This document shows positions 1 to 45,850 of a stretch of DNA of 64,000 nucleotides, one piece after another. The stretch's first letter is position 1, and the number at the start of each line of letters is the position of its first letter. The stretch is from a virus (Duplodnaviria; Caudoviricetes), in the IMG/VR virus record IMGVR_UViG_3300028805_000067, positions 71,256-135,255 of that record; one strand, written 5' to 3'. Position numbers and translations under genes: made by a program. The notes beneath the pieces are model-generated. The model saw nothing but the letters and a program-made list of their open reading frames with translations, had not been told where the DNA came from and ran no database searches.

Positions 1-80
1 ACTGTTGTTACCCCGAGAACCCAAGGACTAAGGAGTTTTTATTGCCGACTGCGTGAACTCTCATAGTGTTAAACACGCTC

Positions 81-130
81 GTGATTGTGGTGGATTTGAA
101 CCACCTTGCCCTTATGGCTTCCATTCAACC
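81..130 (-). ncRNA. tRNA-like minihelix (acceptor stem plus T-arm), not a full tRNA
   Basis: Minus strand TGGTTG..GCCATAAGGGC..GGTGG-TTCAAAT-CCACC-A-CAATCA: canonical T-loop closed by a 6-bp outer stem, with no D or anticodon arm. Confidence 0.4.
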
Positions 131-226
131 ATATTCAAGGGGTGGCGTGGCGTTGCCACCCCTGTATCTTTATAACCCAACTTGGTACGCACTGTTAGTA
201 GGCGTGTCAGGGAAGGAGTGCAAGGG

Positions 227-619
227 TTAAGCCCTTGCGAACACCTTAGCACCCTTATAAGCTACCATTTCCTCGTAAGTGAGTGGTGTCTTTTCCTTGT
301 TGTCCTTATAGGCTACCGCCTTGCCAGACTTAACAAGTTCCTTAAGACGAGGGGATACTTTCTGCGAAGTCCACTCTTCACCGATTGAACGAGCGATTGT
401 GGTTGCAGTTGCAGGCTCTGCGGTAAGTGCGTTATATACCGCCTCCATAGCCTTAGCATCCGCCTCAATCTCTGCCTTGCTCTTGCCTCCGCTTGACTTG
501 CGGTTAGCAATAGAGTTCTTAAGCTGAACGAGCTTATCATTGAGGTCTTTGTCATCTTTTACATTTGCGCCATTGAGAACCGCATCAAGTGCGGATACAT
601 AAGAATACTTATCTGCCAT
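227..619 (-). CDS. putative winged-helix DNA-binding protein
   Basis: RBS AAGAGGTG before ATG at 619; C-terminal TATTIARSIGEEWTSQKVSPRLKELVKSGK is HTH-like; own promoter at 657-685. Confidence 0.6.
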   Translation of the reverse strand: MADKYSYVSALDAVLNGANVKDDKDLNDKLVQLKNSIANRKSSGGKSKAEIEADAKAMEAVYNALTAEPATATTIARSIGEEWTSQKVSPRLKELVKSGKAVAYKDNKEKTPLTYEEMVAYKGAKVFARA

Positions 620-881
620 AATTAGCACCTCTTTCTTTTTTTATTTTTGTAAGTTTATTATATCATATTTTGTTCGGTTTGTCAAGTGTTTTTTAAAAAT
701 TTTTTATTTTAGTGGCTATGCGCACTTGCCACATGGTTGGTAGAATTTTTGTCACAACCCCTTGCACCACCTATATGGGGTTTTGTTCCGAATTAGCTTC
801 ATTATGTTTAGCACCTCTTTTCTTATCTTGTGTCTTTATTATACCATATTTTTTTGAGTTTGTCAAGAGTTTTTTTAACTT

Positions 882-924
882 TTTTCAAGTGAACCGTAAC
901 TGTTTCAGCCAACCCACCTTACTT
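882..924 (-). ncRNA. structured RNA motif, copy 1
   Basis: 43-nt ungapped match to 9207-9249 with compensatory stem changes; just downstream of promoter 954-982, no ORF. Confidence 0.6.
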
Positions 925-1089
925 TGTTTTCTCTCTTAACCTTTTGTACCTTTATTATAACATATTTTCTTGAATTTGTCAAGAGTTTTTTATTTTTTGT
1001 TAAGATTTTTGTCTGCCTCGCAACGGATTGTTTCTTTTCTTAACTGTCTACATTGTACCACAAAACCATAAAAATTACAATCGGCAAAT

Positions 1090-1119
1090 TGCATAAATTT
1101 TAGGATTATTTTTTGTGCA
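1090..1119. promoter_or_regulatory. TGCACAAA-N14-TTTGTGCA-like operator, copy 1 of 5 (others start at 5146, 5546, 6371, 8702)
   Basis: Inverted repeat always 9 nt upstream of a non-consensus -35 box. Confidence 0.7.
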
Positions 1120-1138
1120 ACTTTTTTGCAAATTTTGC

Positions 1139-1167
1139 TTGACAAATTGTTGAAGATATGGTATAAT
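1139..1167 (+). promoter_or_regulatory. rightward sigma70 promoter firing into 39-bp hairpin H1
   Basis: TTGACA-N17-(TG)-TATAAT perfect consensus; no credible downstream ORF. Confidence 0.7.
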
Positions 1168-1174
1168 GGAATTT

Positions 1175-1213
1175 TCGGCGCGGCGACGCAAAGTGCGGCT
1201 GTCGCCGCGCCGA
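1175..1213 (+). repeat. 39-bp GC-rich palindrome H1
   Basis: TCGGCGCGGCGAC-N13-GTCGCCGCGCCGA, 13-bp perfect stem. Confidence 0.85.
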
Positions 1214-1218
1214 CAAAC

Positions 1219-1242
1219 AAAAAAGGTGGCATCCGCCACCTT
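1219..1242 (-). terminator. intrinsic terminator
   Basis: AAGGTGGC-GGAT-GCCACCTT followed by a T-run on the minus strand. Confidence 0.75.
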
Positions 1243-1486
1243 AATCTTCAATTTCTGGATGAGATTCTAAAAAACTGTCTGTAATATCTTCTGAATAATC
1301 TTGTATATCGTTAAAGAAGTAATCATATGCTTCATCATCGGTACAATTTAGTATCATCTCTTGTATTGCTCCAAAAACATCATCATAATTTTTGAAAGGT
1401 AGTTTTTCATGTGCCGCCTCTAAAGCATCCAAAATATCTCCATCATCTGGTAAATTACAAGTTATAGTGCGTGTTAATGTTAGCAT
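1241..1486 (-). CDS. hypothetical acidic protein
   Basis: ORF with AAGGAGG RBS. Confidence 0.75.
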   Translation of the reverse strand: MLTLTRTITCNLPDDGDILDALEAAHEKLPFKNYDDVFGAIQEMILNCTDDEAYDYFFNDIQDYSEDITDSFLESHPEIED

Positions 1487-1501
1487 ATATGTACCTCCTT
1501 T

Positions 1502-1690
1502 TTATTTATCCCGAGAGCGGAATATTTCATCCCACTTTTTACGCTCTTCTTCTCTGCTTTTCTGAATAGCTTTAAGTATATTTAGAATGAATATCAGAGT
1601 TCCTTCAACAATAGAACATATTGCAAGAGGCACTCCCACATTAAAGCCACATAGATACAAAACACCAAATACAACTATTACAATATCCAT
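1502..1690 (-). CDS. small membrane protein
   Basis: Hydrophobic N-terminal two-thirds, charged tail, AAAGGAG RBS. Confidence 0.7.
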   Translation of the reverse strand: MDIVIVVFGVLYLCGFNVGVPLAICSIVEGTLIFILNILKAIQKSREEERKKWDEIFRSRDK

Positions 1691-1708
1691 TTTTATTATC
1701 GCTCCTTT

Positions 1709-1981
1709 CTATTTTACCCATTCACAATCACTATCTTTTAATATCTGTTTAACCTTATCAGCGACAAAAGATGTAGTATTCTGATCAAGATCTAATAAAT
1801 CTTTTTGACTTAATCTGTATGTGATAAGTTTACTTATTGAGCGTAAAGCAAGATATTCATAGTATTTTATTGAATACTTTTCTTCTTCTTCATTTGCATC
1901 CCACATCATATTTTCAACTGCATTTTTAATAACACTGTTAAAATTTTTATCAGGTACATCAATTGCAAGTGTAATTTTCAT
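1709..1981 (-). CDS. hypothetical protein
   Basis: ORF with AGGAGG RBS. Confidence 0.75.
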   Translation of the reverse strand: MKITLAIDVPDKNFNSVIKNAVENMMWDANEEEEKYSIKYYEYLALRSISKLITYRLSQKDLLDLDQNTTSFVADKVKQILKDSDCEWVK

Positions 1982-2031
1982 TTTTACCTCCTATGGCGGA
2001 GGCGCCTTATCAGCGCCCGCCGCCCCCTTTT

Positions 2032-2226
2032 TTATTCTATGTAATCATCATAAATTATTACAGATAAATCAACCTCGCCCCATATTTCATCAGGTACAGT
2101 CAATTTAGTACGCTCAATAATTATATCGGAATCAAATTCTCTTATTAGTTTTAATAAGCCATTAGTTTCCATTTCACGAACTTCTCTAAAAGCACTGTCG
2201 CTTGCTTTGGTGATATATACTTTCAT
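2032..2226 (-). CDS. hypothetical protein
   Basis: ORF with AGGAG RBS. Confidence 0.7.
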   Translation of the reverse strand: MKVYITKASDSAFREVREMETNGLLKLIREFDSDIIIERTKLTVPDEIWGEVDLSVIIYDDYIE

Positions 2227-2240
2227 TACTATATCATCTC

Positions 2241-2432
2241 CTATGCATTTTTAGTTATCTCAACATATTCTTTAAGTATTTTTACAAGTGCCGAGAAAAA
2301 TTCGTCCGCATCATCATTTTCAGAAGTTACAAACATGGCTTTAAGACCAGCCGCCGCCAAAACTTTACCAATGTCTTTATCAGCAGTTGCCAATATTTTA
2401 TTGAGTTCTTCATTTTTTACATAAGTTTTCAT
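2241..2432 (-). CDS. hypothetical protein
   Basis: Start moved to MKTYVK, which has an AGAGG RBS and lies below promoter 2472-2500. Confidence 0.7.
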   Translation of the reverse strand: MKTYVKNEELNKILATADKDIGKVLAAAGLKAMFVTSENDDADEFFSALVKILKEYVEITKNA

Positions 2433-2658
2433 TTTAGTTACCTCTTTTCTTTTTGTTTTTATTGTGCTTTTATTATAACACATTTTTTTGTTTTTGTCAA
2501 GACCTTTTTTATTTTCTTTAGGATTTTTTCACCGCCTTGACTTCGGTGCGCTTCCTTCATTTGATGGTTTAATTATAACAGATATTAGGCATTTTGTCAA
2601 TAGTTTTTTAATAAAAATTTGAAATATTTTTTTCTAACGATACTGCTTGTTGGATAAT

Positions 2659-2697
2659 GCGGAGCGCGGTCGGGGAACCCGAAGGCCCGCGCTCCGC
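2659..2697 (+). repeat. 39-bp GC-rich palindrome H2
   Basis: GCGGAGCGCGG-N17-CCGCGCTCCGC. Confidence 0.85.
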
Positions 2698-2724
2698 CAA
2701 AAAGAAAAGAGGGCATCCGCCCTC

Positions 2725-3027
2725 TTAATGTCCGAATCTGATATAGTGTTTTATCCAACTGTCACCAAAGTATTCTTTTAATTCTTGCTCGTACTGTGGA
2801 TAGTTTTGCAAAATTGATATCTTATAAATGGTATCATAGTCCATCATACAGTACCAACTATTATCGTCACCCTTGTAAAATCTTAATGTATCAAGAATGA
2901 AATTCATTGTTTCTTGCTTTAAATCAGCTTTAATACAATCCTCAAGGCTTACGAACTGACTATTAAAGATAGGTTTAATGTTAAAGTCTGTTACTTTTAC
3001 TCCACTCATTTTAGGTTCAAAATTCAT
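2725..3027 (-). CDS. hypothetical protein
   Basis: Start moved to MNFEPK with AAGGAGG RBS; terminator at about 2700-2726 follows. Confidence 0.7.
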   Translation of the reverse strand: MNFEPKMSGVKVTDFNIKPIFNSQFVSLEDCIKADLKQETMNFILDTLRFYKGDDNSWYCMMDYDTIYKISILQNYPQYEQELKEYFGDSWIKHYIRFGH

Positions 3028-3041
3028 TTTTATGTCCTCCT

Positions 3042-3212
3042 TTATTTGTAATATATTTCTGATGAAAAGTAATAGTTGTAAACTATAATCGCAACTTTTT
3101 CGATCTGCTTTACATATTTGCGCACTGTTATTGCGGATTCTTTGGGAATTACTCCCCATACTTCCAAATCATCAATATGTTCCATAAGGTCATCATACAT
3201 TTTTTCAGTCAT
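3042..3212 (-). CDS. hypothetical protein
   Basis: Start moved to MTEKMY with GGAGG RBS, overlapping the upstream stop. Confidence 0.65.
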   Translation of the reverse strand: MTEKMYDDLMEHIDDLEVWGVIPKESAITVRKYVKQIEKVAIIVYNYYFSSEIYYK

Positions 3213-3447
3213 CTTTTGTTCCCTCCTCCCAGAGTACATTATAAAGTCTACATAAGTCTGCCCATTCCCACTCGTCATCCGCAAACCATTCATAGTCCTC
3301 TTCTATTGCCTCATCAGGTATACCTAACTGAATCCAGTCGCTCCATATAAGCTCATCCCCGAGGTCTATGATACTCTCATTCATTTCCTTTGCAAGAGCA
3401 ATACGCTCATCTCTTGTTGTTTCATAAAAATCTCTTGTGTTTACCAT
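3205..3447 (-). CDS. hypothetical acidic protein
   Basis: AAGGAGG RBS; promoter 3479-3507. Confidence 0.75.
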   Translation of the reverse strand: MVNTRDFYETTRDERIALAKEMNESIIDLGDELIWSDWIQLGIPDEAIEEDYEWFADDEWEWADLCRLYNVLWEEGTKDD

Positions 3448-3563
3448 TGTTGGTACCTCCTTGTTTGTTTGTACCTAAAGTATATCATATTAGGACGGAT
3501 TTGTCAAGTAGTTTTTTGCATTTTTGAAAAAATATTTTTAGAGGGTGTTCTCTGTTAGACTTT

Positions 3564-3602
3564 GCGGAGGCTGTGCGCAAAAAGCCCACGCACAGCCTCC
3601 GC
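3564..3602 (+). repeat. 39-bp GC-rich palindrome H3
   Basis: GCGGAGGCTGTGCG-N11-CGCACAGCCTCCGC, 14-bp perfect stem. Confidence 0.85.
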
Positions 3603-4097
3603 TCATTTCGTGGAGGCTGTTAGTCTTTTGTAAAATGCTTGCACATTTATATTTAATTCTTGTTTAAATGTTTCAATCTTGTCTGGGTGCATCTTGTAAA
3701 ACCATATCGCCCAAGCGGTCGCCGCCTTTTCAAGTGGAAGATTAAAATATAATTTATTAGCTACATGATGCAATGGTTTTGGCAGCTTGTCAATTCCGAT
3801 TTTGCAAATCATATTCCACATGGTGTTAGTATCAGAAAAGTATTTGAAAGTTTTTAAATGTCCGATTTCATGCAGAATTGATAATATCATCAAATCAATT
3901 GTAGCTGGCTGAAAATCATATTTCCAATTCTTTTTTATAAATGAACAAAAGTCTTTGTCACATTTGTCACACTGTAAAGAGTAAGCGATTTGTTTGCGGT
4001 TTTTAGATACCCAAAAGTTTTGGTCAAGTGTTGCGGTTAAGGTTAAACCGCAACACTCTTTTATCATTTCGCTCATTTGTTTATTTAATATTTTCAT
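3603..4097 (-). CDS. putative zincin-like metallopeptidase (HExxH)
   Basis: ILHEIGH motif with a downstream E in LPLEKAATAWA. Confidence 0.55.
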   Translation of the reverse strand: MKILNKQMSEMIKECCGLTLTATLDQNFWVSKNRKQIAYSLQCDKCDKDFCSFIKKNWKYDFQPATIDLMILSILHEIGHLKTFKYFSDTNTMWNMICKIGIDKLPKPLHHVANKLYFNLPLEKAATAWAIWFYKMHPDKIETFKQELNINVQAFYKRLTASTK

Positions 4098-4306
4098 AAT
4101 TTTTTTAATACCTCATCAAGCCTTTCATCAAGGTAGGCATTGTTTACCATATAAAGTGCGGTTTTCAGTCCTTTTACTACACCCTTATAGTAGATTGCAT
4201 CCTCAGTTTCATCATTGTCGTCAGCATCCTTGCGATTCCATTGATAAATGTCTATCATCTGTCTCAGGGATGTCTCAATTTTTCGTGCCAGTTCTTCATT
4301 ACTCAT
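4094..4306 (-). CDS. hypothetical protein
   Basis: GGAGG RBS; promoter 4342-4370. Confidence 0.75.
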   Translation of the reverse strand: MSNEELARKIETSLRQMIDIYQWNRKDADDNDETEDAIYYKGVVKGLKTALYMVNNAYLDERLDEVLKKL

Positions 4307-4429
4307 TTTTTAATTCCTCCGTTTTTTTATTTTGTAATTAAAGTATAACACATTTTAGGATAAAAGTCAAGTATTTTTTTGAAAAAAATTAAAAATATTT
4401 TATTTAGAGGGCATAATATTAAAGTTAAT

Positions 4430-4468
4430 GCGGGTCGCTGCCGCGAAGAACTTGTGGCAGCGACCCGT
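4430..4468 (+). repeat. 39-bp GC-rich palindrome H4
   Basis: GCGGGTCGCTGCCGCGA..TTGTGGCAGCGACCCGT, three G-T pairs on the plus strand. Confidence 0.85.
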
Positions 4469-4496
4469 CCGAGCCACCGCCACAGTTTTGGAGGAT

Positions 4497-4814
4497 TTAT
4501 TCAAAATTATTTTCAAAAAGCCAATCTTCAATTACCTCGTCAGCAAGTGTTTCATAATCTACATTTTTCATGGCAAGCATTGCCCAGTTGTAAGCATCAG
4601 AACCAAGTCGATAATTAACACTGAATCCGATACTATCTTCACCAAGTGACTTTAGCATTTCGATTACATTTGTTTTGAGGGTTTTATCTTTATTCATCTG
4701 TAAGATTTCATCATCCTCGTAGAAAAAGGATAGTGAAAAATCTCCATATAAAAAATCTTCTTTAAACTTGTATGTTTCATAGTTTTTATATTTGCTATCA
4801 GGTCTATAATACAT
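4497..4814 (-). CDS. hypothetical protein
   Basis: Start moved to MYYRPD with AAGGAGG RBS. Confidence 0.7.
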   Translation of the reverse strand: MYYRPDSKYKNYETYKFKEDFLYGDFSLSFFYEDDEILQMNKDKTLKTNVIEMLKSLGEDSIGFSVNYRLGSDAYNWAMLAMKNVDYETLADEVIEDWLFENNFE

Positions 4815-4824
4815 ATTTGCCTCC

Positions 4825-5076
4825 TTAATGCGCCTCATAGGTTCTGTTTGATACTAAACCTGAGCCACAGTTCGTGACGAACCAACAATACTCATCAGTG
4901 CTCATAATCTCACCAGTTTCTGTATCAATTGCATCCACTATAGCGCTATACTCATAATAGTCTATATATGGCAATACAGAGTTCAGATAATGGATTACTG
5001 AATCCATATCATCAAAATCCTCACGCTCAAGAATGTAAAATCCTGTTGTGTCGCTTATTTCTACTGTGTATCTCAT
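4825..5076 (-). CDS. hypothetical protein
   Basis: Start moved to MRYTVE with GGAGG RBS; promoter 5108-5136. Confidence 0.7.
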   Translation of the reverse strand: MRYTVEISDTTGFYILEREDFDDMDSVIHYLNSVLPYIDYYEYSAIVDAIDTETGEIMSTDEYCWFVTNCGSGLVSNRTYEAH

Positions 5077-5205
5077 ATTGAGTACCTCCGTTTCATTTGA
5101 TAGCATAAGTATACTATATTTTAGGTAAAAAGTCAACATACAAAATGCACAAAGATTAGATTGAATGTTTGTGCACTTTTAACAAAAGAACAATGTGATT
5201 TGCCT

Positions 5206-5448
5206 TTATGAAATATCCAGATATATAGGCTCTAAATCGTGACAATCAGCAAATTCACTCGTTTCACCGTTGCCTTTATAGACTTTGAAATCTCTAATAA
5301 TATCACCATACTCTTCTATTTTACGCAGGCGACCACACACCCAAGATTTAAGATATGAATCTCTATACCGTTTATACGGCTTGCTGGTGCATACAATAAT
5401 GGTAAGATCCTCGGTGAAAACTACAAGGGTAAAAATCTGTTCGTTCAT
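5206..5448 (-). CDS. hypothetical protein
   Basis: MNEQIF start with GGAGG RBS; promoter 5508-5536. Confidence 0.7.
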   Translation of the reverse strand: MNEQIFTLVVFTEDLTIIVCTSKPYKRYRDSYLKSWVCGRLRKIEEYGDIIRDFKVYKGNGETSEFADCHDLEPIYLDIS

Positions 5449-5594
5449 AATAAAATCCTCCATAGGGTAAGTAGTGGTTTAAGGGTCTCTTCCTTAACTC
5501 TGGATACATTGTACCATATTTTAGGAAGAAAGTCAACATACAAAATGCACAAAATTGAATGGAATTTTTTATGCAATATATACAAATAGACAAT

Positions 5595-5633
5595 GCGGGC
5601 CGTCGACGCGAAAAACTTGTGACGACGGCCCGC
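5595..5633 (+). repeat. 39-bp GC-rich palindrome H5
   Basis: GCGGGCCGTCG-N17-CGACGGCCCGC. Confidence 0.85.
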
Positions 5634-5683
5634 CAAGACCGCCGTCCAAGTTTGGAGGATATTCTGTAATTTTAGTAAATTGA

Positions 5684-5730
5684 TTGGGAGCAAGGGAGTC
5701 GAACCCTACTACTGAGCCGTCAGCTCCCAA
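5684..5730 (-). ncRNA. tRNA-like minihelix 3' of ORF 5736-6056
   Basis: TTGGGAGC..AGGG-TTCGACT-CCCT-T-GCTCCCAA: acceptor-like stem plus T-arm and one short internal hairpin. Confidence 0.5.
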
Positions 5731-5735
5731 GTGGA

Positions 5736-6056
5736 CTAAAATGTCCACTCATCGAAAAGTAACTGGGCGATTTCTTCAAAATTTACATTATTTATTGCAA
5801 GCAATGCCCAACCATATACCTCTTTATAGAGTTTATAGTCTACATTAAATTTAAATGTTTCTACTACTGCATCTCTTAATTTCTCTGCTATATCTGCAAC
5901 CATAAACCCTTCTGCCATATTTTTTGAAACATCTTCGCAATACAGTTCAAATTCTTCATTTGGATCGTCATATACATTTTCAAGAGTTGCATCTGCGAAA
6001 AAATCTTTGTAGCATTCCCAAGTAGGATAATTTGAAAAACCATTAACTTTTGCCAT
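5736..6056 (-). CDS. conserved hypothetical phage protein
   Basis: N-terminal NGFSNYPTW resembles the YNGWxNYxTW motif of small phage early proteins; RBS and promoter present. Confidence 0.7.
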   Translation of the reverse strand: MAKVNGFSNYPTWECYKDFFADATLENVYDDPNEEFELYCEDVSKNMAEGFMVADIAEKLRDAVVETFKFNVDYKLYKEVYGWALLAINNVNFEEIAQLLFDEWTF

Positions 6057-6094
6057 TGTATTTACCTCTTTTCTTATTTTCTATAATGATTATA

Positions 6095-6301
6095 TCATAT
6101 TTTTTTGTTCTTGTCAATACCTTTTTTCATAATTTTTACACGCCTGCGGATGTTTCCGTTGTACCTGTGTGCTTCTACAATTGTATTAAGAACCTTTAAA
6201 TCATTGCATCTATTTGCAAAGTCTACAAACTGTGCGACTACATTATTGTAGCCATTGTAAATGTTGTACATTTCCTGAATGAGTTCCTGTTTATTCTTCA
6301 T
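6095..6301 (-). CDS. hypothetical protein
   Basis: GGAGG RBS; promoter 6333-6361. Confidence 0.7.
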   Translation of the reverse strand: MKNKQELIQEMYNIYNGYNNVVAQFVDFANRCNDLKVLNTIVEAHRYNGNIRRRVKIMKKGIDKNKKI

Positions 6302-6420
6302 TTTTTTGTCCTCCGTTCTTTATCTTGACTAAAATATACCATATTTTAGGTAAAAATACAATAGATAAAATGCACAAAAAATCAGCAAAAAATTTATACA
6401 ACCTGTCTATTGACAAAACA

Positions 6421-6459
6421 GCGGATGGCGCGCGACAGATGCTGCAGCCCGCCATCCGC
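6421..6459 (+). repeat. 39-bp GC-rich palindrome H6
   Basis: GCGGATGGCG-N19-CGCCATCCGC. Confidence 0.85.
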
Positions 6460-6485
6460 TCAATAAAAAAGAGTAGGCTTTTCGC

Positions 6486-6647
6486 CTACTCATATTCAAC
6501 AGTCCAATTGGTTGCGTAAATGTAATCATCAAATTCTTTTCTGTACTTGTACAGGTCGATTTTGTGTCCAAGTCTTGACCATTCAACTGCTTCCCTGTGG
6601 TTTGCAGTGAGTTTGTTTGTTACGGTGTCGTGATAGATAGTTTTCAT
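6486..6647 (-). CDS. hypothetical 53-aa protein (not in the ORF track)
   Basis: MKTIYHDTVTNKLTANHREAVEW...; AAGGAG RBS, promoter 6679-6707, terminator at about 6464-6491. Confidence 0.7.
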   Translation of the reverse strand: MKTIYHDTVTNKLTANHREAVEWSRLGHKIDLYKYRKEFDDYIYATNWTVEYE

Positions 6648-6684
6648 TGTTTAAATCTCCTTTGTTTTTTGTAATTTTATTATA

Positions 6685-6861
6685 TCATATGTCTTTTAAT
6701 TTGTCAACCATTTTATTTAATTCTTTCTGATATTTATAAGTTCTATTGCCTAAGCACCAATCGCATCCTCCGTGGTTTCTGCAAGTGCAATCAAAAGCCT
6801 TGCTACCCTTATATTGTTTGCGGTGTTCTTTTCCATACTCAATTGCTTTGTTCATGCTCAT
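6685..6861 (-). CDS. small Cys-rich (putative Zn-binding) phage protein
   Basis: DCTCRNHGGCDWCLGNR; AAGGAGG RBS. Confidence 0.7.
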   Translation of the reverse strand: MSMNKAIEYGKEHRKQYKGSKAFDCTCRNHGGCDWCLGNRTYKYQKELNKMVDKLKDI

Positions 6862-6939
6862 TTTTTTATCCTCCTTGTTCTTTTGTATCTTTATTATACC
6901 ATAGGGCTTGGCTTTTGTCAAGCCCTATTTTTAACTTTT

Positions 6940-7248
6940 TTAGCAATATGCCAAGTTCATTTTTCTCCATCCAAGAATTGAGATTTGGTTATGTTCTCTG
7001 CCTATTGCAAGTGCATCACATTTGCGTGTTACACGCTTACTCAGGTCGATATACCATATCCCGTCTGCGAACCAAATACCGCAGTTTCCACTATATGCTT
7101 TGATAGCTTTCATAGCCTCATGCATATCTTTTGTTTCAATACCCTCGGTAGCCACTTGCCAACCTGTCTTATAGGTTATAGGCTTGCCATTTTTAAGAGT
7201 TAAGCCGCCGTTGTTCTCAATTTTCTTAAGTGTTCTAATGTTTATCAT
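6940..7248 (-). CDS. hypothetical protein
   Basis: Start moved to MINIRT with GGAGG RBS; promoter 7279-7307. Confidence 0.7.
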   Translation of the reverse strand: MINIRTLKKIENNGGLTLKNGKPITYKTGWQVATEGIETKDMHEAMKAIKAYSGNCGIWFADGIWYIDLSKRVTRKCDALAIGREHNQISILGWRKMNLAYC

Positions 7249-7366
7249 ATCAGGTTCCTCCGTTCCTTTGATGATTAAAGTATACCACATTTCGGGTATT
7301 TTGTCAATGGGTAAAAATAAAAAAGTTGAAAAAATTTTGGCTGGATCAGCTCTCTTACTGGAACTT

Positions 7367-7405
7367 GCGGACTGCGCGCAGAGTTTGCGCCAGCGCGCAG
7401 TCCGC
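7367..7405 (+). repeat. 39-bp GC-rich palindrome H7
   Basis: GCGGACTGCGCGC-N13-GCGCGCAGTCCGC. Confidence 0.85.
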
Positions 7406-7443
7406 CAAAGAAAAAGACACTACTTTGCGTAGTGTCCTGTATT

Positions 7444-7626
7444 CTACTCGCCTGCGTAGTAGGCTGAACGGTAGCACTGAGGGTTCATTTCATTTTCAGT
7501 GTGAACAACCTCAAGTGCCCTGTCCTGAGTACTGTAAGCTCCATAGAACCAGTACTCGCCGTCACAGTAGGAAATTACCCACCAATCATACTCTCTTGCA
7601 TAGTCAGGAACATTGTTAATCTTCAT
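7444..7626 (-). CDS. hypothetical protein
   Basis: AGGAGG RBS; promoter 7659-7687. Confidence 0.7.
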   Translation of the reverse strand: MKINNVPDYAREYDWWVISYCDGEYWFYGAYSTQDRALEVVHTENEMNPQCYRSAYYAGE

Positions 7627-7694
7627 AATTAAGTCCTCCTCTTGTTTTTGTTGACTTTATTATAACATAATTGTTAAGGTTTGTCAAGCCTTTT

Positions 7695-7895
7695 TTAATA
7701 ATCTTTTCCGATTTCTACAACCATATCCCAAGCGATTTTTTCAAGTGAGAGATTGCATTTTTTTGCGTATCGTGTGACATCTGAATTAGCCTGCAGGCTT
7801 TTCATTACTTTGTTTAATGCGCTGTCCCAATTCTTTGCGGAAAATTCCTCGGGCAAGTCTACAAGATTGCGGTTGCGTGTAATTCTGTAATTCAT
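7695..7895 (-). CDS. hypothetical protein
   Basis: AGGAGG RBS; promoter 7926-7954. Confidence 0.7.
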   Translation of the reverse strand: MNYRITRNRNLVDLPEEFSAKNWDSALNKVMKSLQANSDVTRYAKKCNLSLEKIAWDMVVEIGKDY

Positions 7896-7968
7896 ATTTA
7901 AGCCTCCTGAACTTTTTGTAATTCTATTATATTACATTTTTGTAAATTTGTCAAGTGTTTTTTACATC

Positions 7969-8178
7969 TCATTCCGTTCCGTAAATATCCCACCAATTCT
8001 CCTCAGCTACAGGCTCAAGTCTAACATTTTTGCCTCTGCCCAAGCAATAGATATCTTCTTTTGTAGGTGCGTTGATAATTCTATCAACATCTGCCTGTGT
8101 ACCGTTTGCGTATACCATACAAGTTACGGTTACTCCATTGTTGAATGTGCAATCTGCAACGATCATGTACTTCTTCAT
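7969..8178 (-). CDS. hypothetical protein
   Basis: AGGAGG RBS; promoter 8224-8252. Confidence 0.7.
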   Translation of the reverse strand: MKKYMIVADCTFNNGVTVTCMVYANGTQADVDRIINAPTKEDIYCLGRGKNVRLEPVAEENWWDIYGTE

Positions 8179-8310
8179 AATTTAATCCTCCTAATTATTT
8201 GTTCTTTCCTTTTTTCTGATTAAAGTATATCATATTTTAGGATATTTGTCAATAGTTTTTTTCAAAAAAACTAAAAAAAGTTTTTTTAAACCTCCTCCCA
8301 GTAGAATAAC

Positions 8311-8349
8311 GCGGCTCAGTTGCCGCAAAAGCAAATGCAACTGAGCCGC
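8311..8349 (+). repeat. 39-bp GC-rich palindrome H8
   Basis: GCGGCTCAGTTGC-N13-GCAACTGAGCCGC. Confidence 0.85.
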
Positions 8350-8375
8350 CCGATTGTGACGGCTCAGTGAGTGGA

Positions 8376-8624
8376 CTAATATTCAATATCCTCGCAGAAT
8401 ACAACAGGCTCTCCGCTGAAGTACTTGTAACCAACAGAGTATTTTCTTTTTAGGATGCAAGCACCTGCCTCGTACCATGTTGCCTCTACATCATCAACAA
8501 TATTCTTGGTGTCTGCACCGAGCAGAAGTGCCTCAGCAGTGCGGTTTGCCTCTTCCCAAGTGGTCCAGAAAGTGGTCTTAACAGCGGTGTTAGTGGTTGT
8601 GTAGGTAAGCATAGTGTTCATCAT
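8376..8624 (-). CDS. hypothetical protein
   Basis: GGAGG RBS before MMNTML; promoter 8664-8692. Confidence 0.7.
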   Translation of the reverse strand: MMNTMLTYTTTNTAVKTTFWTTWEEANRTAEALLLGADTKNIVDDVEATWYEAGACILKRKYSVGYKYFSGEPVVFCEDIEY

Positions 8625-8740
8625 AATTGTTTCCTCCATTGTTCTTTCCTTTTTTCTGATTAAAGTATATCATAAATTGGATATTTTTGCAATAGTCAAA
8701 ATGTACAAAATTTTTAATATTTTTTGTGTACTCTGCACAA

Positions 8741-8947
8741 TCACTGCTTTACTACTGTGATAAGCCTGTTGTAAGTATCGGTAATAACAACCTTGTCATT
8801 TACAAATTTTTCAGCCATTTTGTTTGCGTAAGCATATGCCTGATCATAGTCATTAATCTGAGCTTCGCTAACTACTTTCCAGATGATACCGAAGAAGCCT
8901 TCGCCTTTGTTTCTCATAACCTTTACTTTGTAACCTGTTCCTGTCAT
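8741..8947 (-). CDS. hypothetical protein
   Basis: GGAGG RBS; promoter 8988-9016. Confidence 0.7.
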   Translation of the reverse strand: MTGTGYKVKVMRNKGEGFFGIIWKVVSEAQINDYDQAYAYANKMAEKFVNDKVVITDTYNRLITVVKQ

Positions 8948-9075
8948 ATTTTAATCCTCCGTTTCTTTCTTTCTTTATCTTGACTAAAGTATATCATATT
9001 TTGGGCGTTTTGTCAATAGTTTTGCGCAAAAAAACTTAAAAATTTTTATTTGGAAACATATATAATTAGAAAAAT

Positions 9076-9114
9076 GCGGTTCGGCTACGCAACGCACTGC
9101 CGCAGCCGAACCGC
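9076..9114 (+). repeat. 39-bp GC-rich palindrome H9
   Basis: GCGGTTCGGCT-N17-AGCCGAACCGC. Confidence 0.85.
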
Positions 9115-9206
9115 CCAATAAAAAAAGAGCCAAGTTAGTTTAACTTAGCTCTCTCATGTGATATTCATTTGTTTTACACCTCGTTTCTGAAAACCCCTGT
9201 TGCACC

Positions 9207-9249
9207 TTTTCAAAGCACCCGTAACTGTTTCAGCCAAGCGCCCCTACTT
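9207..9249 (-). ncRNA. structured RNA motif, copy 2
   Basis: See 882-924; lies between promoter 9281-9309 and terminator at about 9119-9152. Confidence 0.6.
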
Positions 9250-9324
9250 AGTGGCTGTTCTTTTCTCTTTTCTTGTCTTTATTATAGCACTCAATATCTA
9301 TTTTGTCAAGTGTTTTTTCACTTT

Positions 9325-9747
9325 TTAAAAAATAATTTTTGCGCCTTTTGTTTCAAGCCAGTAGCCTGCATGACCTGCTTTTATCCATGCATTGATATTT
9401 GCTTTTGTATCATCAATTAGCATCCCATCTTCTTTGATGTAATCTACTTTTTTACCACTACCAACTAAACAAATAAATTTATCACTTGTAATTTCAGGAA
9501 TGTATTTTGCAAGCCAATCAAGTTTGCCAAGTTTAGCATCTTCAGAAGCACAAGCAGTCAGGATGTAAACATTGTTGCCCTGAGCAATCAGCTTACGCAC
9601 AAGATTAACATTTTCTACAAAAGGCTCAAGGTTTGCAATCCATCTTCTCTGCATAACAAGATAACGCTTTGTAGCATCATAAGCCTTGTGGAAGTTAGCA
9701 AGAACACCGTCCATATCAAAATAGTAAGTGGCAATAGTAGTTCTCAT
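9325..9747 (-). CDS. HAD-family 5'(3')-deoxyribonucleotidase-like phosphatase
   Basis: FDMDGVLANF motif I, ILT motif II, K, and LIDD motif IV. Confidence 0.8.
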   Translation of the reverse strand: MRTTIATYYFDMDGVLANFHKAYDATKRYLVMQRRWIANLEPFVENVNLVRKLIAQGNNVYILTACASEDAKLGKLDWLAKYIPEITSDKFICLVGSGKKVDYIKEDGMLIDDTKANINAWIKAGHAGYWLETKGAKIIF

Positions 9748-9892
9748 AGTGACATCCTCCATCTCTTTATCTTGGCTTTATTATACCTCTGACTTGTGAA
9801 TTTGTCAAGTCTGTTTTGTATATTTTTTAAAAAAATTTTTATACAAAAACTGCTGCATAAAAATTTCTTGGAATGGATCAAGTAAAATAAAC

Positions 9893-9931
9893 TCGCTGCC
9901 TTTACGGCATATTCATTTGTAAAGGCAGCGA
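9893..9931 (+). repeat. 39-bp palindrome H10 (variant ends)
   Basis: TCGCTGCCTTTAC-N13-GTAAAGGCAGCGA. Confidence 0.65.
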
Positions 9932-10150
9932 CGAAAAATAGAGAAGCTCTCAAGGTTTTAAAAAATAGTGCTAGAAAGTGTATAGGCGGGGGGTGTATAT
10001 TGGGAAAAGATCCAGCTTTTTTTAAAAAAAGAAAACGCCACCCCCTCTCCCCGTCTAAATCTTTTTTCAATTTATTAAACACAATTTAACTCTCCGCCTA
10101 AATTTTTACTAAAACGACAGCACCTTTATCACTTTTTGCCCAATAAAAAA

Positions 10151-11293: not shown

Positions 11294-12595
11294 ATGCCAA
11301 ATAAATTATATTGTCCACGATGTAACAAGGAGAAGGCGGAGGTGCAGTTCTTTAAGCTGCGTAATAACAAAGGTTTTTTTGAACTCTGCAAGGAATGTAC
11401 TTGTGCGCACATAGATAACTTTAATCCAGACACTTTTCTTTGGATACTTGAAAAGGCGGATGTACCTTGGGTGGAAACAGAATGGGTTAAAATTAGAGAT
11501 AAAACCATTCGTGAAAAAGGATATGAAGGTCTTAAAAATACTTCAGTAGTTGGAAAATATTTAGCTAAAATGCGTATTAATACATTTGCTAAATATACCT
11601 GGGCGGACAGTGCTAAATTTGCGGAGGACCAGAATGAGAAGCGGAAGGCCGCGCTTGAACAGATTGAAGCTAGAAAACAAATGTTAGAGCAAGACTTAAA
11701 TGAGGGAAGAATATCACAAGAAGAGTATGAGCTATTATCGTCCGCTCCTGATGTGACGCCTGAGGAAGAGCATTTTGCGCCGCCTACCGAAGAAATGCTT
11801 GCGGAAATCGCCGCTAAAGGTGCACAGCAAGCTAGTACTAATAATTCTGGCACTGGTCCGGTTACAATGAACTTCTTTGACGAAAAAAATTATATTCCAG
11901 AAGAAGAAATACCAGACCCCGCCGCAGATATGAGCCAAGAGCTAAAAATAGCATTGGTGCAAAAATGGGGTAGATTATATTCACCACAAGAACTTCTTGC
12001 TCTTGAAAATTATTATCAAGAAATGATGGCATCCTTTGATATTCATGATGCGGATACTCTTAATACACTTCGTCTATTGTCTAAAACAGTTCTAAAAATG
12101 GACCAAGCTATGGACCGCGGTGATACTGATACATATTTAAAACTGTCAAAAGTAGCAGATATGCAACGAAAATCCGCAAAATTTACAGCGGCACAGAATA
12201 AGGCAGATAACATTAATACATTTGATTCAGTTGGCGCGGTGGTAGCTTTATGCGAAAAAGAAGGAGATTTTATTCCTAGATATATTCCAGATGATAAATA
12301 CCCACAAGATAAAATTGATTTGACTTTAAAAGATACGCAGCAATATCTGTATAACTTGGTTACAGAAGATCTAGGTTTCAGTCAGCAACTAGAAAATGCT
12401 ATTAAGAATCTACAGAATAGACAACAGGCGGAGGCCCTTGCTGAAAAAGAAGCAGAGCTAGATAATTATTATAACGCCGACCGCCATATTTTAGATGATG
12501 AGTCATTTGAAGATTTCTATGCCTCAGTAGAAGAACAGCGTGCGGCGGATGCTGGTATCACTGCTGCACTTGATTTATCTAATGCGGAGGTATGA
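11294..12595 (+). CDS. putative terminase small subunit (N-terminal Zn finger)
   Basis: CPRC..CKEC; immediately upstream of and overlapping terL. Confidence 0.55.
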   Translation: MPNKLYCPRCNKEKAEVQFFKLRNNKGFFELCKECTCAHIDNFNPDTFLWILEKADVPWVETEWVKIRDKTIREKGYEGLKNTSVVGKYLAKMRINTFAKYTWADSAKFAEDQNEKRKAALEQIEARKQMLEQDLNEGRISQEEYELLSSAPDVTPEEEHFAPPTEEMLAEIAAKGAQQASTNNSGTGPVTMNFFDEKNYIPEEEIPDPAADMSQELKIALVQKWGRLYSPQELLALENYYQEMMASFDIHDADTLNTLRLLSKTVLKMDQAMDRGDTDTYLKLSKVADMQRKSAKFTAAQNKADNINTFDSVGAVVALCEKEGDFIPRYIPDDKYPQDKIDLTLKDTQQYLYNLVTEDLGFSQQLENAIKNLQNRQQAEALAEKEAELDNYYNADRHILDDESFEDFYASVEEQRAADAGITAALDLSNAEV

Positions 12596-14358
12596 TTATG
12601 GATGTTATTGAACAAGAATTACAACAATTTATTAAAATTGATAATAATTTAAAAAAGATAGGTATTTCACAAGCGCGTATTGAAGCTTGTATGCCAAAAC
12701 TGCGTAAACAAATTGCATTTTGGCGAGAGTATCCTGATTTATTTGTAGACTTTATGTGCGGCATAGATGCTGAAGGCGGAAAACCAAAAGAAACATTAAA
12801 TCTATTCTTTTATCAGCGTGTATTTTTGCGAGCGGCTATTCGTCATAGACTGGCCTATTGTGTTTTTCCACGAGCCTATTCTAAATCCTTTCTTAGCTTT
12901 TTAACGCTAATAGTTAGATGTATTTTATATCCTGGTGCTCAATTGTTCGTTACTACTGGTGGTAAAGCTCAGGCAGCTAGTATAGCAAAAGAAAAAGTTA
13001 ATGAAATTTGCTATCTTGTACCTGGTTTCCATAATGAGATTAACTGGACAAGAGGCGCATCTAAAGAAAGTAAAGATTATGTAGAATATATATTCAAAAA
13101 TGGTAGTAATTTAGCGGTTGTCGCTACCAGTAATGCTACGCGTGGTCAGCGTAAAACAGGTGGCTTAATGGAAGAGGTAATTCTTATAGATGGCCAGCTT
13201 TTGAATGAAGTTATCTTACCTTTGATGAATGTAGATAGACTTTTGCCAAATGGAACTAGACATGAAGAAGAAAATGTAAATAAATCACAAATATATATTA
13301 CGACTGCAGGCTTCAAACAAACATTTGCTTATCAGAAGCTGATTGAAATAGTTATTCAGCAGCTTATTAACCCAGACGCCGCGATTGTTTTAGGTGGAAC
13401 ATGGCGGGTTCCGGTAATGGAACATTTGCTTTCTAAAAATTTTGTAAATGAATTAAAAGATGCTGGAACATATAATGAGGATTCATTTGCACGAGAATAT
13501 GAGTCGCACTGGGTGGGGGATTCAGAAAATGCTTTCTTTTCTTCTGACAGCTTTGATAAAAATAGAATTTTATTACAGCCTGAATATGAATATTCTGGAA
13601 GAACTTCTAAATCTGGATATTATATATTATCTGTCGATGTAGGTCGTAAAGGTTGTACTTCTGAAGTGTGCGTATGGAAAGTTACACCACAAGTACAAGG
13701 AGCAAGTTTAAAATCATTAGTAATGTTATATTCTTATGATGAAGAACATTTTGGTCTGCAAGCTGCTCACTTAAAAAATTTATATTATAAATATAAAGCT
13801 AGACGGTTAATCATAGATGCCAATGGTCTTGGTATTGGTTTAGTAGACTTTATGGTAATCCCAACTACAGATCCTGATACTGGAGATGTTTATCCACCAT
13901 TTGGTGTAGATAATGATGAAGATGGTACATATAAAAAATTTAAAACTAGTGATATGGAGGCTAATGCTATGTGGCTGATTAAAGCTAATGCGCCTATAAA
14001 TACTGAAGCACATACAAATGCACAGACTCAATTGTCTAGTGGCAAAATAAAGCTATTAATAGACCAAAATACAGCTAAAGCTAAATTATTAGCTACTAAG
14101 CGTGGGCAAGAAATGACAGTAGAAGAAAGAAATAAATATTTACAGCCTTATGTAATGACATCTATTTTAAAAGAACAAATGGGTAATCTTATAGAGGAAA
14201 ATGAAGGTATTAATATTATATTAAAACAAAAAAACAAGGCAGTTTCTAAAGATAGGTTTTCTGCTTTTGAATATGGTTTATATTACATTAAGTTAGAAGA
14301 AGATTCTAAAAAGCGTAGAAAAGGTAATCGTATGGCTGATATAATGTTTTGGAATTAA
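12592..14358 (+). CDS. terL: terminase large subunit
   Basis: FYQ Q-motif, PRAYSKS Walker A variant, LMEE Walker B, YITTAG coupling motif, LSVDVGR and KDRFSA nuclease motifs. Confidence 0.92.
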   Translation: MIMDVIEQELQQFIKIDNNLKKIGISQARIEACMPKLRKQIAFWREYPDLFVDFMCGIDAEGGKPKETLNLFFYQRVFLRAAIRHRLAYCVFPRAYSKSFLSFLTLIVRCILYPGAQLFVTTGGKAQAASIAKEKVNEICYLVPGFHNEINWTRGASKESKDYVEYIFKNGSNLAVVATSNATRGQRKTGGLMEEVILIDGQLLNEVILPLMNVDRLLPNGTRHEEENVNKSQIYITTAGFKQTFAYQKLIEIVIQQLINPDAAIVLGGTWRVPVMEHLLSKNFVNELKDAGTYNEDSFAREYESHWVGDSENAFFSSDSFDKNRILLQPEYEYSGRTSKSGYYILSVDVGRKGCTSEVCVWKVTPQVQGASLKSLVMLYSYDEEHFGLQAAHLKNLYYKYKARRLIIDANGLGIGLVDFMVIPTTDPDTGDVYPPFGVDNDEDGTYKKFKTSDMEANAMWLIKANAPINTEAHTNAQTQLSSGKIKLLIDQNTAKAKLLATKRGQEMTVEERNKYLQPYVMTSILKEQMGNLIEENEGINIILKQKNKAVSKDRFSAFEYGLYYIKLEEDSKKRRKGNRMADIMFWN

Positions 14359-45298: not shown

Positions 45299-45850
45299 TT
45301 AATCTTGGTCAAAATTGCCCAATAATTCTTCTAACTTAGGGGCTAATTTATTAATATCATCATCTGAATTAAATAAAGTTTCATAGCTAAAATCAATTGT
45401 AGCAAAATCTTCTTCATCTTTTAAAAATCTTCTACATATTTCATGTACATCAGGGGATTGTTCTCTATTTAAGCATCTTAATAATCGTGTTTTATTTGAT
45501 GCTTGTACATATACTGGTAAAATTTGCACCCTATCATCCGCTAACAGCATATTAATTCCATTTATATTAAAAACACCTACATTAACTTTATCCTCTGATA
45601 ATGATTCAATTGGTGTACCATAATACCAATTTCTAAAAGAAGTGGCCTCTAACATAGTTCCATCTAAAACTTTATCTGTAAATTCTTCTTCTGTTAGAAA
45701 ATAATAATCTACAGTATCTTGTTCATATTCACGCGGAGGCCTGGTAGTCGCGCTGACTATTTCATGTATATCAGCGTGACTTGCATACCATTTTTGTATT
45801 GTATCTTTACCAGCTCCACTCGGTCCAAATAATGCTAATATTTTATACAT
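45299..45850 (-). CDS. gmk: guanylate kinase-like protein
   Basis: GPSGAGKD P-loop, TTRPPREYE, DYYF, YYGT. Confidence 0.88.
   Translation of the reverse strand: MYKILALFGPSGAGKDTIQKWYASHADIHEIVSATTRPPREYEQDTVDYYFLTEEEFTDKVLDGTMLEATSFRNWYYGTPIESLSEDKVNVGVFNINGINMLLADDRVQILPVYVQASNKTRLLRCLNREQSPDVHEICRRFLKDEEDFATIDFSYETLFNSDDDINKLAPKLEELLGNFDQD

What the first reader, a model, noticed from the sequence alone, without database searches (positions are those of the whole stretch)
882..9249. A 43-nt structured RNA motif in two copies with compensatory base changes
Seen on the minus strand: AAGTAAGGTGGGTTGGCTGAAACAGTTACGGTTCACTTGAAAA (882-924) and AAGTAGGGGCGCTTGGCTGAAACAGTTACGGGTGCTTTGAAAA (9207-9249). 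All 8 differences lie in the outer stem and preserve pairing: U-A to G-C, G-C to C-G and G-U to C-G double changes, plus two single changes to G-U. The inner hairpin TGGCTG-AAA-CAGTTA and the CG bulge are invariant. G-U pairs place it on the transcribed strand. Both copies start about 30 nt below a -10 box, in leaders with no normal ORF. Inference: an RNA element I do not recognise, such as a put/nut-like antiterminator, a protein decoy, or an antitoxin or crRNA mimic.
Basis: partly seen in the sequence, partly recalled or inferred. Interest (0 to 1): 0.72.

Follow-up and report, generated by a model that had tools for sequence, protein, structure and literature searches.

The report
Orphan two-copy phage RNA hairpin
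A 135-kb gut/rumen phage carries two copies of a 43-base RNA hairpin right behind two strong early promoters; its stem has changed while keeping its pairing, so it is almost certainly a real functional RNA, but it matches no known RNA family and I found it in no other genome, so its job can only be guessed.

Summary
The two 43-nt copies (882-924 and 9207-9249, minus strand) are the only ones in the 135-kb virus record. All 8 differences lie in a 7-bp stem: three double compensatory changes, two single changes to G-U, no broken pair. The other 29 positions are identical, while the flanks have diverged beyond recognition. The fold works only on the transcribed strand, and swapping stem arms between copies destroys it.

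Each copy starts about 24-26 nt after the predicted start of a perfect sigma-A-type early promoter. Copy 2 is followed only by a 4-codon ORF and two tandem terminators, which predicts an RNA of about 158 nt with no protein payload. Copy 1 lies between stacked promoters.

No Rfam family matches. I found no homologue in IMG/VR, JGI metagenomes, 185,579 GTDB species genomes, GenBank phages or the nearest relatives. CRISPR-repeat and ToxI-antitoxin mimicry found no support.

Best reading, at low confidence: an early, abundantly transcribed protein-binding small RNA module acting in trans. Rivals are a cis leader element for RNase III-type processing, as in SP82/SPO1/T7, or for antitermination. With two sequences from one genome the covariation evidence is thin.

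The parts
882..924 (-). Motif copy 1: basal AAGUA / GAAAA flanks, 7-bp variable stem, invariant apical hairpin with AAA loop and a 3'-side bulge
   Evidence: (CM 66 bits, E 6.5e-15)
9207..9249 (-). Motif copy 2: same architecture; the stem differs at 8 positions and every pair is kept
   Evidence: (CM 65.5 bits)
954..982 (-). Perfect TTGACA-17-TATAAT promoter (with TG) driving copy 1; predicted start near 947, so the motif begins at about +24
9281..9309 (-). Perfect TTGACA-17-TATAAT promoter (with TG) driving copy 2; predicted start near 9274, so the motif begins at about +26
838..866 (-). Next perfect promoter, 16 nt after the end of copy 1 (stacked promoters); there is no terminator between it and the motif
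752..802 (-). 16-codon ORF with a Shine-Dalgarno site, behind the promoter at 838-866; downstream neighbour of copy 1
9154..9182 (-). Shine-Dalgarno site (9182-9177) and 4-codon ORF MNIT (9168-9154) after copy 2; its stop codon overlaps the foot of the terminator stem
   Evidence: read from the sequence
9116..9155 (-). Intrinsic terminator after copy 2: 11-bp core stem (15 bp if the first U residues are counted), 3-nt loop, U-tract. It predicts an RNA of about 158 nt
9070..9114 (-). 39-nt GC-rich palindrome (14-16 bp stem) followed by AUUUUU: a second, tandem terminator-like hairpin and a member of the cassette-boundary palindrome family
   Evidence: read from the sequence; earlier notes e1-5960867 and e1-5960857

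Best explanation
The 43-nt element is the functional core of a phage-specific small structured RNA, made in large amounts at the very start of infection from two host-type consensus promoters.

Shown here:
- It folds, on the transcribed strand only, into a tiered hairpin.
- The middle helix is free to change sequence as long as it pairs.
- The apical hairpin, the bulge and the basal AAGUA/GAAAA loop are held invariant.
- The two transcription units share nothing else.

Inferred: the invariant unpaired and apical nucleotides are a recognition surface for a protein, and the variable helix is only a spacer. The RNA itself is the product. Copy 2 is a self-contained unit of about 158 nt, made of promoter, motif and double terminator, with no protein payload. 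The RNA would act in trans, most likely by binding or titrating a host or phage protein early in take-over. Two genes give dosage.

The basal loop has the sequence signature of a sarcin-ricin (bulged-G) internal loop, AGUA opposite GAA, which is a common protein-docking motif. I rate 'real, selected, strand-specific structured RNA' at about 0.8. The confidence given below is for the trans-acting protein-binding mechanism.
For: - Covariation and strand specificity.
- Only two copies, both 24-26 nt behind perfect early promoters.
- Similarity between the loci ends sharply at the motif borders. Upstream only the generic promoter and purine-rich leader are alike; downstream nothing is.
- Copy 2 is followed by a 4-codon ORF and two tandem terminator hairpins within 140 nt. 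The unit encodes no protein.
- Copy 1 sits in a stack of promoter-driven short non-coding units.
- AGUA/GAA is the canonical sarcin-ricin motif sequence (PMC1865062) and lies in the right orientation in both copies.
- The plus-strand ORFs over the motif are not homologous outside it.
Against: - There is no transcript data.
- There are only two sequences from one genome.
- No partner protein can be named. The 20 early ORFs scanned gave no Pfam match above cut-off.
- Copy 1 has no terminator of its own, so it would be the 5' part of longer RNAs unless it is processed.
- The outer helix needed to close a sarcin-ricin loop is 5 bp in copy 2 but only 3 bp in copy 1.
- The same facts fit a cis-acting leader element.
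Confidence: 0.35

Rival explanations
1. Cis-acting processing or stability signal. The hairpin with its internal loop is cut by host RNase III (or another double-strand-specific nuclease), or it protects the 5' end. This would work like the conserved internal-loop hairpins in early leaders of Bacillus phages SP82/SPO1 and the R sites of T7.
For: SP82 target RNAs have internal loops and are cut once on the downstream side by Bs-RNase III (PMC1935012; PMC4838370). The SPO1 host-takeover leaders that I folded carry a repeated hairpin with conserved lower stem and internal loop and a covarying upper stem, between promoter and ribosome-binding site. The motif here is likewise a promoter-proximal tiered hairpin with a 3'-side bulge in an early region of similar design.
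Against: Copy 2 has no mRNA downstream to be processed or stabilised, only 4 codons and then terminators. The continuous helix is only 13-14 bp, shorter than the roughly two helical turns usual for RNase III substrates (my knowledge). There is no sequence or CM similarity to the SPO1 hairpins. Only 2 of about 30 early units carry it.
Confidence: 0.2
2. Cis-acting RNA antiterminator (put-like). The nascent hairpin modifies the RNA polymerase that made it, so that transcripts from these two promoters read through the terminators separating the early cassettes.
For: The position mimics put/nut: just behind early promoters. One copy is 0.9 kb from the start of the roughly 17-kb leftward early array and the other is 8.3 kb further on. 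Copy 2 lies directly upstream of terminators. RNA-only or RNA-plus-protein processive antiterminators exist in phages and in Firmicute mobile elements (put, EAR, conAn2; PMC8191782).
Against: It is a single 43-nt hairpin. By comparison, put has two stem-loops of about 70 nt in all and EAR is about 120 nt (my knowledge), and conAn2 is 260-600 bp. Every downstream cassette has its own perfect promoter, so read-through is not needed. The second hairpin after copy 2 has a 14-16-bp stem, the length class shown to resist conAn antitermination (PMC10325885). That result is for a different system, so the argument is weak. No terminator follows copy 1 for several hundred nt.
Confidence: 0.15
3. Anti-defence RNA mimic. 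The hairpin imitates a host CRISPR repeat (RNA anti-CRISPR) or a type III antitoxin repeat and so neutralises a host defence nuclease.
For: Phage RNA mimics of both kinds are known (my knowledge: Racr RNAs; pseudo-ToxI of phage PhiTE). The unit size (43 nt) and the A-rich borders resemble antitoxin repeat units. ToxN genes are common in Lachnospirales, in 55 of 401 genomes sampled.
Against: The core, with two degenerate positions, gave 66 single hits in 185,579 species genomes, about as many as expected by chance (my estimate). None was in an array; none of the 66 gave a full-structure CM match, and the 9 I inspected lie in open frames of 115 to 2666 aa. The CM with filters off found nothing (best E 0.6) in 30 ToxN loci, whose repeats are unrelated. 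The copies are 8.3 kb apart, not in tandem.
Confidence: 0.07
4. No RNA function. The motif is a duplicated leader fragment or a double-stranded DNA protein-binding site, and the pairing pattern is chance.
For: There are only two sequences. The tool's shuffle control cannot be significant at n=2 (61 of 500). Fold z-scores of the single copies are modest.
Against: All 8 changes fall in 14 of 43 positions (2e-5), and all pairs are kept (0.7% for random bases at those sites). The flanks have diverged completely while 29 of 29 non-stem positions are identical. Three or four G-U pairs per copy make the element a poor DNA palindrome, and the antisense fold is near zero.
Confidence: 0.08

Closest known systems
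Bs-RNase III processing hairpins in early leaders of Bacillus phages SP82/SPO1 (Panganiban & Whiteley 1983; Mitra & Bechhofer 1994, as cited in PMC4838370 and PMC1935012), and the T7 R sites
   Same: Firmicute (or T7) phage early region with many strong host-type promoters. A hairpin family with an internal loop lies between promoter and gene. Some tiers are conserved in sequence and another tier covaries (SPO1 leaders at L098 about 11811-11853, 12439-12481 and 12757-12790).
   Different: No sequence or CM similarity. Here the apical hairpin is invariant and the middle stem varies, whereas in SPO1 the lower stem and loop are conserved and the upper stem varies. The helix is shorter. Copy 2 precedes no gene. 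Cleavage is untested.
HK022 put RNAs and other RNA antiterminators (EAR, conAn2)
   Same: A structured RNA encoded immediately downstream of early promoters of a mobile element, in two copies, upstream of terminators.
   Different: It is one 43-nt hairpin, against two stem-loops (put), about 120 nt (EAR) or 260-600 bp (conAn2). No Rfam hit of any kind. Downstream cassettes have their own promoters.
Sarcin-ricin / bulged-G (loop E-type) internal loop
   Same: The invariant flanks contain AGUA on the 5' strand and GAA on the 3' strand, directly abutting the helix. This is the canonical sequence and orientation of the motif (PMC1865062).
   Different: This is a local 3D motif, not an RNA family or a function. 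The outer closing helix is weak (5 bp in copy 2, 3 bp in copy 1). No 3D test was possible.
Phage-encoded decoy or mimic RNAs (RNA anti-CRISPRs, pseudo-ToxI)
   Same: A short structured RNA unit behind its own strong promoter, carried by a phage.
   Different: No resemblance to any repeat array or to the ToxI repeats searched.

Membership tests
Any Rfam 15 family | Covariance-model match at or above the gathering score, or at least E <= 10 at the motif | tested here: not met
   0 matches in the whole window at gathering score; with permissive filters, no match overlaps either copy.
HK022 put antiterminator RNA | Two consecutive stem-loops, about 65-70 nt in all | tested here: not met
   A single tiered hairpin of 43 nt. 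Similarity between the copies stops at its borders.
HK022 put antiterminator RNA | Lies just downstream of an early promoter and upstream of terminators | tested here: met
   About +24 and +26 from the predicted starts. Terminators follow copy 2.
HK022 put antiterminator RNA | Factor-independent, cis-only terminator read-through | not testable with these tools
   Needs reporter or in-vitro transcription assays.
Lambda nut (boxA + boxB) | 15-nt boxB hairpin with a GNRA-like pentaloop, plus a boxA sequence | tested here: not met
   The loop is AAA closed by G-C (or GAAAC), without the closing A of a GNRA-like fold. No boxA-like sequence is seen in either leader on reading.
SP82/SPO1-type Bs-RNase III leader site | Hairpin with an internal loop in an early leader | tested here: met
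   Compare the SPO1 leaders.
SP82/SPO1-type Bs-RNase III leader site | Sequence or structure homology to the SPO1/SP82 hairpin family | tested here: not met
   CM R1 with filters off on the SPO1 terminal 13.5 kb: best E 2.8.
SP82/SPO1-type Bs-RNase III leader site | Cleavage by RNase III on the 3' side of the stem | not testable with these tools
   Needs an enzyme assay or end mapping.
CRISPR-repeat mimic (RNA anti-CRISPR) | Close similarity to the repeat of a CRISPR array in a host genome | tested here: not met
   The core pattern in 185,579 species genomes gave 66 single hits and no locus with more than one match. No full-length CM match. The 9 hits I inspected lie in open frames of 115 to 2666 aa. 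The exact-match requirement limits sensitivity.
Type III antitoxin (ToxI-like) mimic | Similarity to tandem repeats upstream of a ToxN-family gene | tested here: not met
   30 ToxN loci from 401 Lachnospirales genomes: repeats of 34-52 nt are unrelated to the motif, and the best CM E-value is 0.6. The cptIN and tenpIN families were not searched.
Sarcin-ricin internal loop | AGUA opposite GAA, in that orientation, next to a Watson-Crick helix | tested here: met
   Columns 2-5 and 39-41 of alignment A1, invariant in both copies. Consensus from PMC1865062.
Sarcin-ricin internal loop | A closing helix on the outer side as well | tested here: inconclusive
   Predicted at 5 bp in copy 2. In copy 1 it is 3 bp plus a distant 8-bp helix. 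The sequences there are not conserved.
Group II intron domain 5 | AGC catalytic triad near the 5' foot of a 34-nt hairpin with a 2-nt 3' bulge; intron context | tested here: not met
   The alternative fold has D5-like proportions. But the triad positions read AGG and GGG, RF00029 gives no hit, and there is no intron ORF nearby.

The most novel reading that the evidence does not exclude
The motif is the first member of a new class of very small (about 43 nt) phage early RNAs that bind a host factor through an invariant apical hairpin, a bulge and a sarcin-ricin-like basal loop. It would do so either as a trans-acting decoy that disarms a host RNA-binding protein or nuclease during take-over, or as the smallest known polymerase-modifying antiterminator RNA.
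Probability: 0.25. Interest if true: 0.6.

Novelty: new variant of a known kind. Interest (0 to 1): 0.35.

Why it matters
Large lytic phages of gut Firmicutes are mostly uncultured, and their early host-takeover regions are full of unknown functions. This genome packs several promoter-driven non-coding units into that region.

A 43-nt RNA with a fixed recognition surface and a free spacer helix, expressed from two consensus promoters at the start of infection, is a compact and easily synthesised handle. It could be used to fish for the host or phage protein it binds. If that partner is a defence nuclease, RNase III or RNA polymerase, the element would be a new minimal regulator or inhibitor.

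As it stands it is a single-genome orphan motif. Its main value is as a well-defined candidate for pull-down and reporter tests.

Tried and rejected
**Searches for homologues (all empty)**
1. Exact invariant core. IMG/VR gave 2 coding chance hits. JGI/ENA metagenomes gave 18 hits, none with the outer stem. GTDB species genomes gave 66 single hits; none had the full structure, and the 9 inspected lie in long open frames.
2. Half-core plus flank patterns in IMG/VR: 0 hits each.
3. A structure-only pattern keeping just the unpaired bases: 25 hits, at most 7 of 13 pairs.
4. CM R1 on the nearest relatives (62-63% terminase identity, 145-150 kb): nothing. One relative, L011, was not held.
5. blastn against 50,697 GenBank phage records: only chance-level hits. 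The one overlapping the motif is coding.
6. Relatives through the flanking proteins. The NT5C-like gene found only distant viral loci. The wHTH gene found none.

**Readings rejected**
7. Coding reading. Plus-strand ORFs cross both copies in the same frame, but they are alike only over the motif and at opposite ends of the ORFs.
8. Antisense targets. There is no complementary stretch of 12 nt or more anywhere in the genome, and the 11-mers occur at chance frequency.
9. Group II domain 5, anticodon-loop mimic, k-turn, BglG-type RAT, preQ1-I and guanidine-II resemblances were considered from memory. Each fails on a defining nucleotide or on register, and none has an Rfam hit.
10. The repeated leader in relative G001 is not the same structure.

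Full report
**What is there.** The window is the right-hand 64 kb of a 135,255-bp IMG/VR virus record. The terminase is 44-46% identical to those of Geobacillus virus E3 and the large Enterococcus phages EF1 and H1, and 61% identical to a human-faecal phage fragment. The record carries a sigma-factor gene, a split DNA polymerase and a 2791-aa ORF.

Window positions 1-10,100 and a further roughly 7 kb to the left form a leftward early region of small ORFs. None of the 20 small early ORFs I scanned has a Pfam match above cut-off. About 30 promoters drive these ORFs, most of them perfect TTGACA-17-TATAAT. This layout resembles the SPO1 host-takeover module.

Their 18-nt core occurs twice against 0.01 expected. 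A covariance model built from them finds only these two in the window and in the 20 kb to its left, even with filters off: 66 and 65.5 bits, with the next best at 16 bits. The whole-record search finds the same two.

**Is it more than chance?**
- 35 of 43 positions are identical, and the 8 differences all lie in the 7-bp outer helix.
- All 13 pairs are standard in both copies. Three pairs changed on both sides, two on one side to G-U.
- Sliding the 3' partners by 1-3 columns drops pairing from 100% to 35-46%.
- Random bases at the same eight sites keep all pairs in 0.7% of a million trials. Eight random hits fall within those 14 positions with probability 2e-5.
- Outside the motif the two loci share only the generic promoter and a purine-rich leader, and nothing downstream. 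So the 29 invariant non-stem positions are conserved against a diverged background.
- The model structure scores -8.7 and -10.2 kcal/mol on the transcribed strand, -2.8 and -2.1 on the other strand, and +3.4 and -0.3 when arms are swapped between copies.

The limits are real. With n=2 the built-in shuffle control bottoms out at 1/8. Single-sequence z-scores are ordinary. The invariant inner part allows two nearly equal folds: 7 bp + U/CGG + 6 bp, or 10 bp + UA bulge + 4 bp, and RNAalifold prefers the second.

**Context.** Copy 1 starts 30 nt after the -10 hexamer of the promoter at 982-954. Copy 2 starts 32 nt after that of the promoter at 9309-9281. That puts them about +24 and +26 from the likely starts.

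In ordinary cassettes of this region a ribosome-binding site and start codon occupy this position. Here the motif does.

After copy 2 come a good Shine-Dalgarno site and a 4-codon ORF whose stop overlaps the foot of a strong terminator (9155-9123 plus U-tract). Then comes a 39-nt GC-rich palindrome followed by AUUUUU, and then the next promoter. The unit should therefore give an RNA of about 158 nt with no protein product.

After copy 1 there is no terminator. Another perfect promoter lies 16 nt later (866-838), followed by a 16-codon ORF, hairpins, a further promoter (685-657) and a 133-aa gene with a weak HTH match. A weaker promoter with its own 60-nt hairpin lies just upstream.

**Known families and homologues.** Rfam gives nothing at gathering score. 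With permissive filters, nothing overlaps either copy. ARAGORN finds no tRNA in the window.

The exact core, half-core patterns and a structure-only pattern found no homologue:
- IMG/VR.
- JGI/ENA metagenomes.
- One genome for each of 185,579 prokaryote species.
- GenBank phages by blastn.

The nearest relatives that could be reached (62-63% terminase identity) have the same kind of early region but no match to the model.

An 86%-identical homologue of the gene just upstream of copy 2 exists on five metagenome contigs. So the obvious route to orthologous copies and to transcript evidence was blocked.

- crRNA mimic. No genome has the core in a repeat array. All 66 hits are single, about the number I estimate for chance; none gave a full-structure CM match, and the 9 I inspected lie in long open frames.
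- Antitoxin mimic. ToxN genes are frequent in Lachnospirales (55 of 401 genomes) and carry 34-52-nt tandem repeats upstream. None of these resembles the motif (best CM E 0.6). The phage copies are also not in tandem.
- put/nut-like antiterminator. The position fits, but the element is a single small hairpin without boxA or a boxB-type loop. Known RNA antiterminators are larger. Each downstream cassette has its own promoter. Copy 2 runs straight into two terminators, the second with a 14-16-bp stem, the length class that resists conAn antitermination in pLS20. I first read the first terminator as 15 bp, following the scan. Its lower four pairs use the U-tract, so 11 bp is the safer figure and I do not lean on it.

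**What it most likely is.** The only thing the two units share is the hairpin. What selection holds fixed in it is the apical hairpin, the bulge and the basal AAGUA/GAAAA loop, while the helix between them is a free spacer. That is the signature of a recognition element for a protein rather than a base-pairing RNA. It also has no complementary target of 12 nt or more in the phage.

The basal loop reads AGUA opposite GAA in the orientation of the sarcin-ricin motif (PMC1865062). This is an inference from sequence, and the outer closing helix is only weakly predicted.

Because copy 2 is a complete promoter-to-terminator unit with no coding payload, I favour an abundantly made early small RNA that acts in trans on a host or phage protein (0.35).

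The best-documented analogue by design is the family of internal-loop hairpins in SP82/SPO1 early leaders and T7, which are RNase III sites. That cis-processing reading (0.2) is weakened by the lack of any mRNA behind copy 2 and by the short helix. Antitermination gets 0.15, anti-defence mimicry 0.07, and no RNA function 0.08. The rest is unassigned.

**Novelty and score.** The motif belongs to no described family, so it is a new RNA motif. As a kind of thing, a small structured RNA in a phage early region, it is familiar. It is confined, as far as I can see, to one uncultured phage, has two members, and has no experimental handle yet. I score interest at 0.35. The most novel reading still open is a new class of minimal host-factor-binding early RNA, or a minimal antiterminator. 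I give that about 0.25 probability and 0.6 interest if true.

Noticed in passing
window 1139-1260 (+); also 415, 2245, 3944 and 6159 nt to the left of the window start (+ strand): Five perfect plus-strand promoters run antisense to the early genes. Each fires at about +5 into a 39-nt GC-rich perfect hairpin whose stems differ in sequence but keep pairing. An A-rich linker and a terminator follow, giving sRNA-like units of about 90 nt. The palindrome after motif copy 2 (9076-9114) is of the same family but has only a degenerate promoter. Relatives G001 and G003 have analogous plus-strand units with different paired hairpins.
   Followed up: partly
window 2472-2600, 5508-5536; also about 485-602, 2395-2562 and 4038-4164 nt to the left of the window start (- strand): Further stacked promoters whose short leaders hold small hairpins and a Shine-Dalgarno-like TAAGGAAG box without a start codon. 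These may be 5' stabiliser-type ribosome-binding sites.
   Followed up: no
window 45843-51086 (-): The DNA polymerase is split into two ORFs (626 aa and 703 aa) with a 296-aa ORF between them (48089-48979). This could be an intron or intein with a homing-endonuclease insert. Rfam found no group I or group II intron at gathering score.
   Followed up: no
window 89-105 (-): A T-arm-like sequence (5-bp stem with a UUCAAAU loop) lies in the non-coding tract downstream of the wHTH gene, although ARAGORN calls no tRNA in the window.
   Followed up: no
L008 2380-2459 and 1050-1121 (-): The relative G001 has its own two-copy leader repeat (45-60 nt) directly behind two early promoters, each followed by another promoter. 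The stacked design is the same, but the sequence is unrelated and no common fold is predicted.
   Followed up: partly
L098 (SPO1) 11811-11853, 12439-12481, 12757-12790 (- strand leaders of gp57, gp59, gp60): A repeated leader hairpin with conserved lower stem and internal loop and a covarying upper stem. These are probably the SPO1 counterparts of the SP82 RNase III sites. The record does not annotate them.
   Followed up: partly
L129-L158 (Lachnospirales genomes): ToxN-family toxin genes occur in 55 of 401 sampled Lachnospirales genomes, most with 2-3.3 tandem repeats of 34-52 nt just upstream.
   Followed up: partly
window 9325-9762 (-): The 5'(3')-deoxyribonucleotidase-like (PF06941) gene just upstream of copy 2 has 484 homologues at E <= 1e-10, many on short metagenome contigs. 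One of them is 86% identical.
   Followed up: partly
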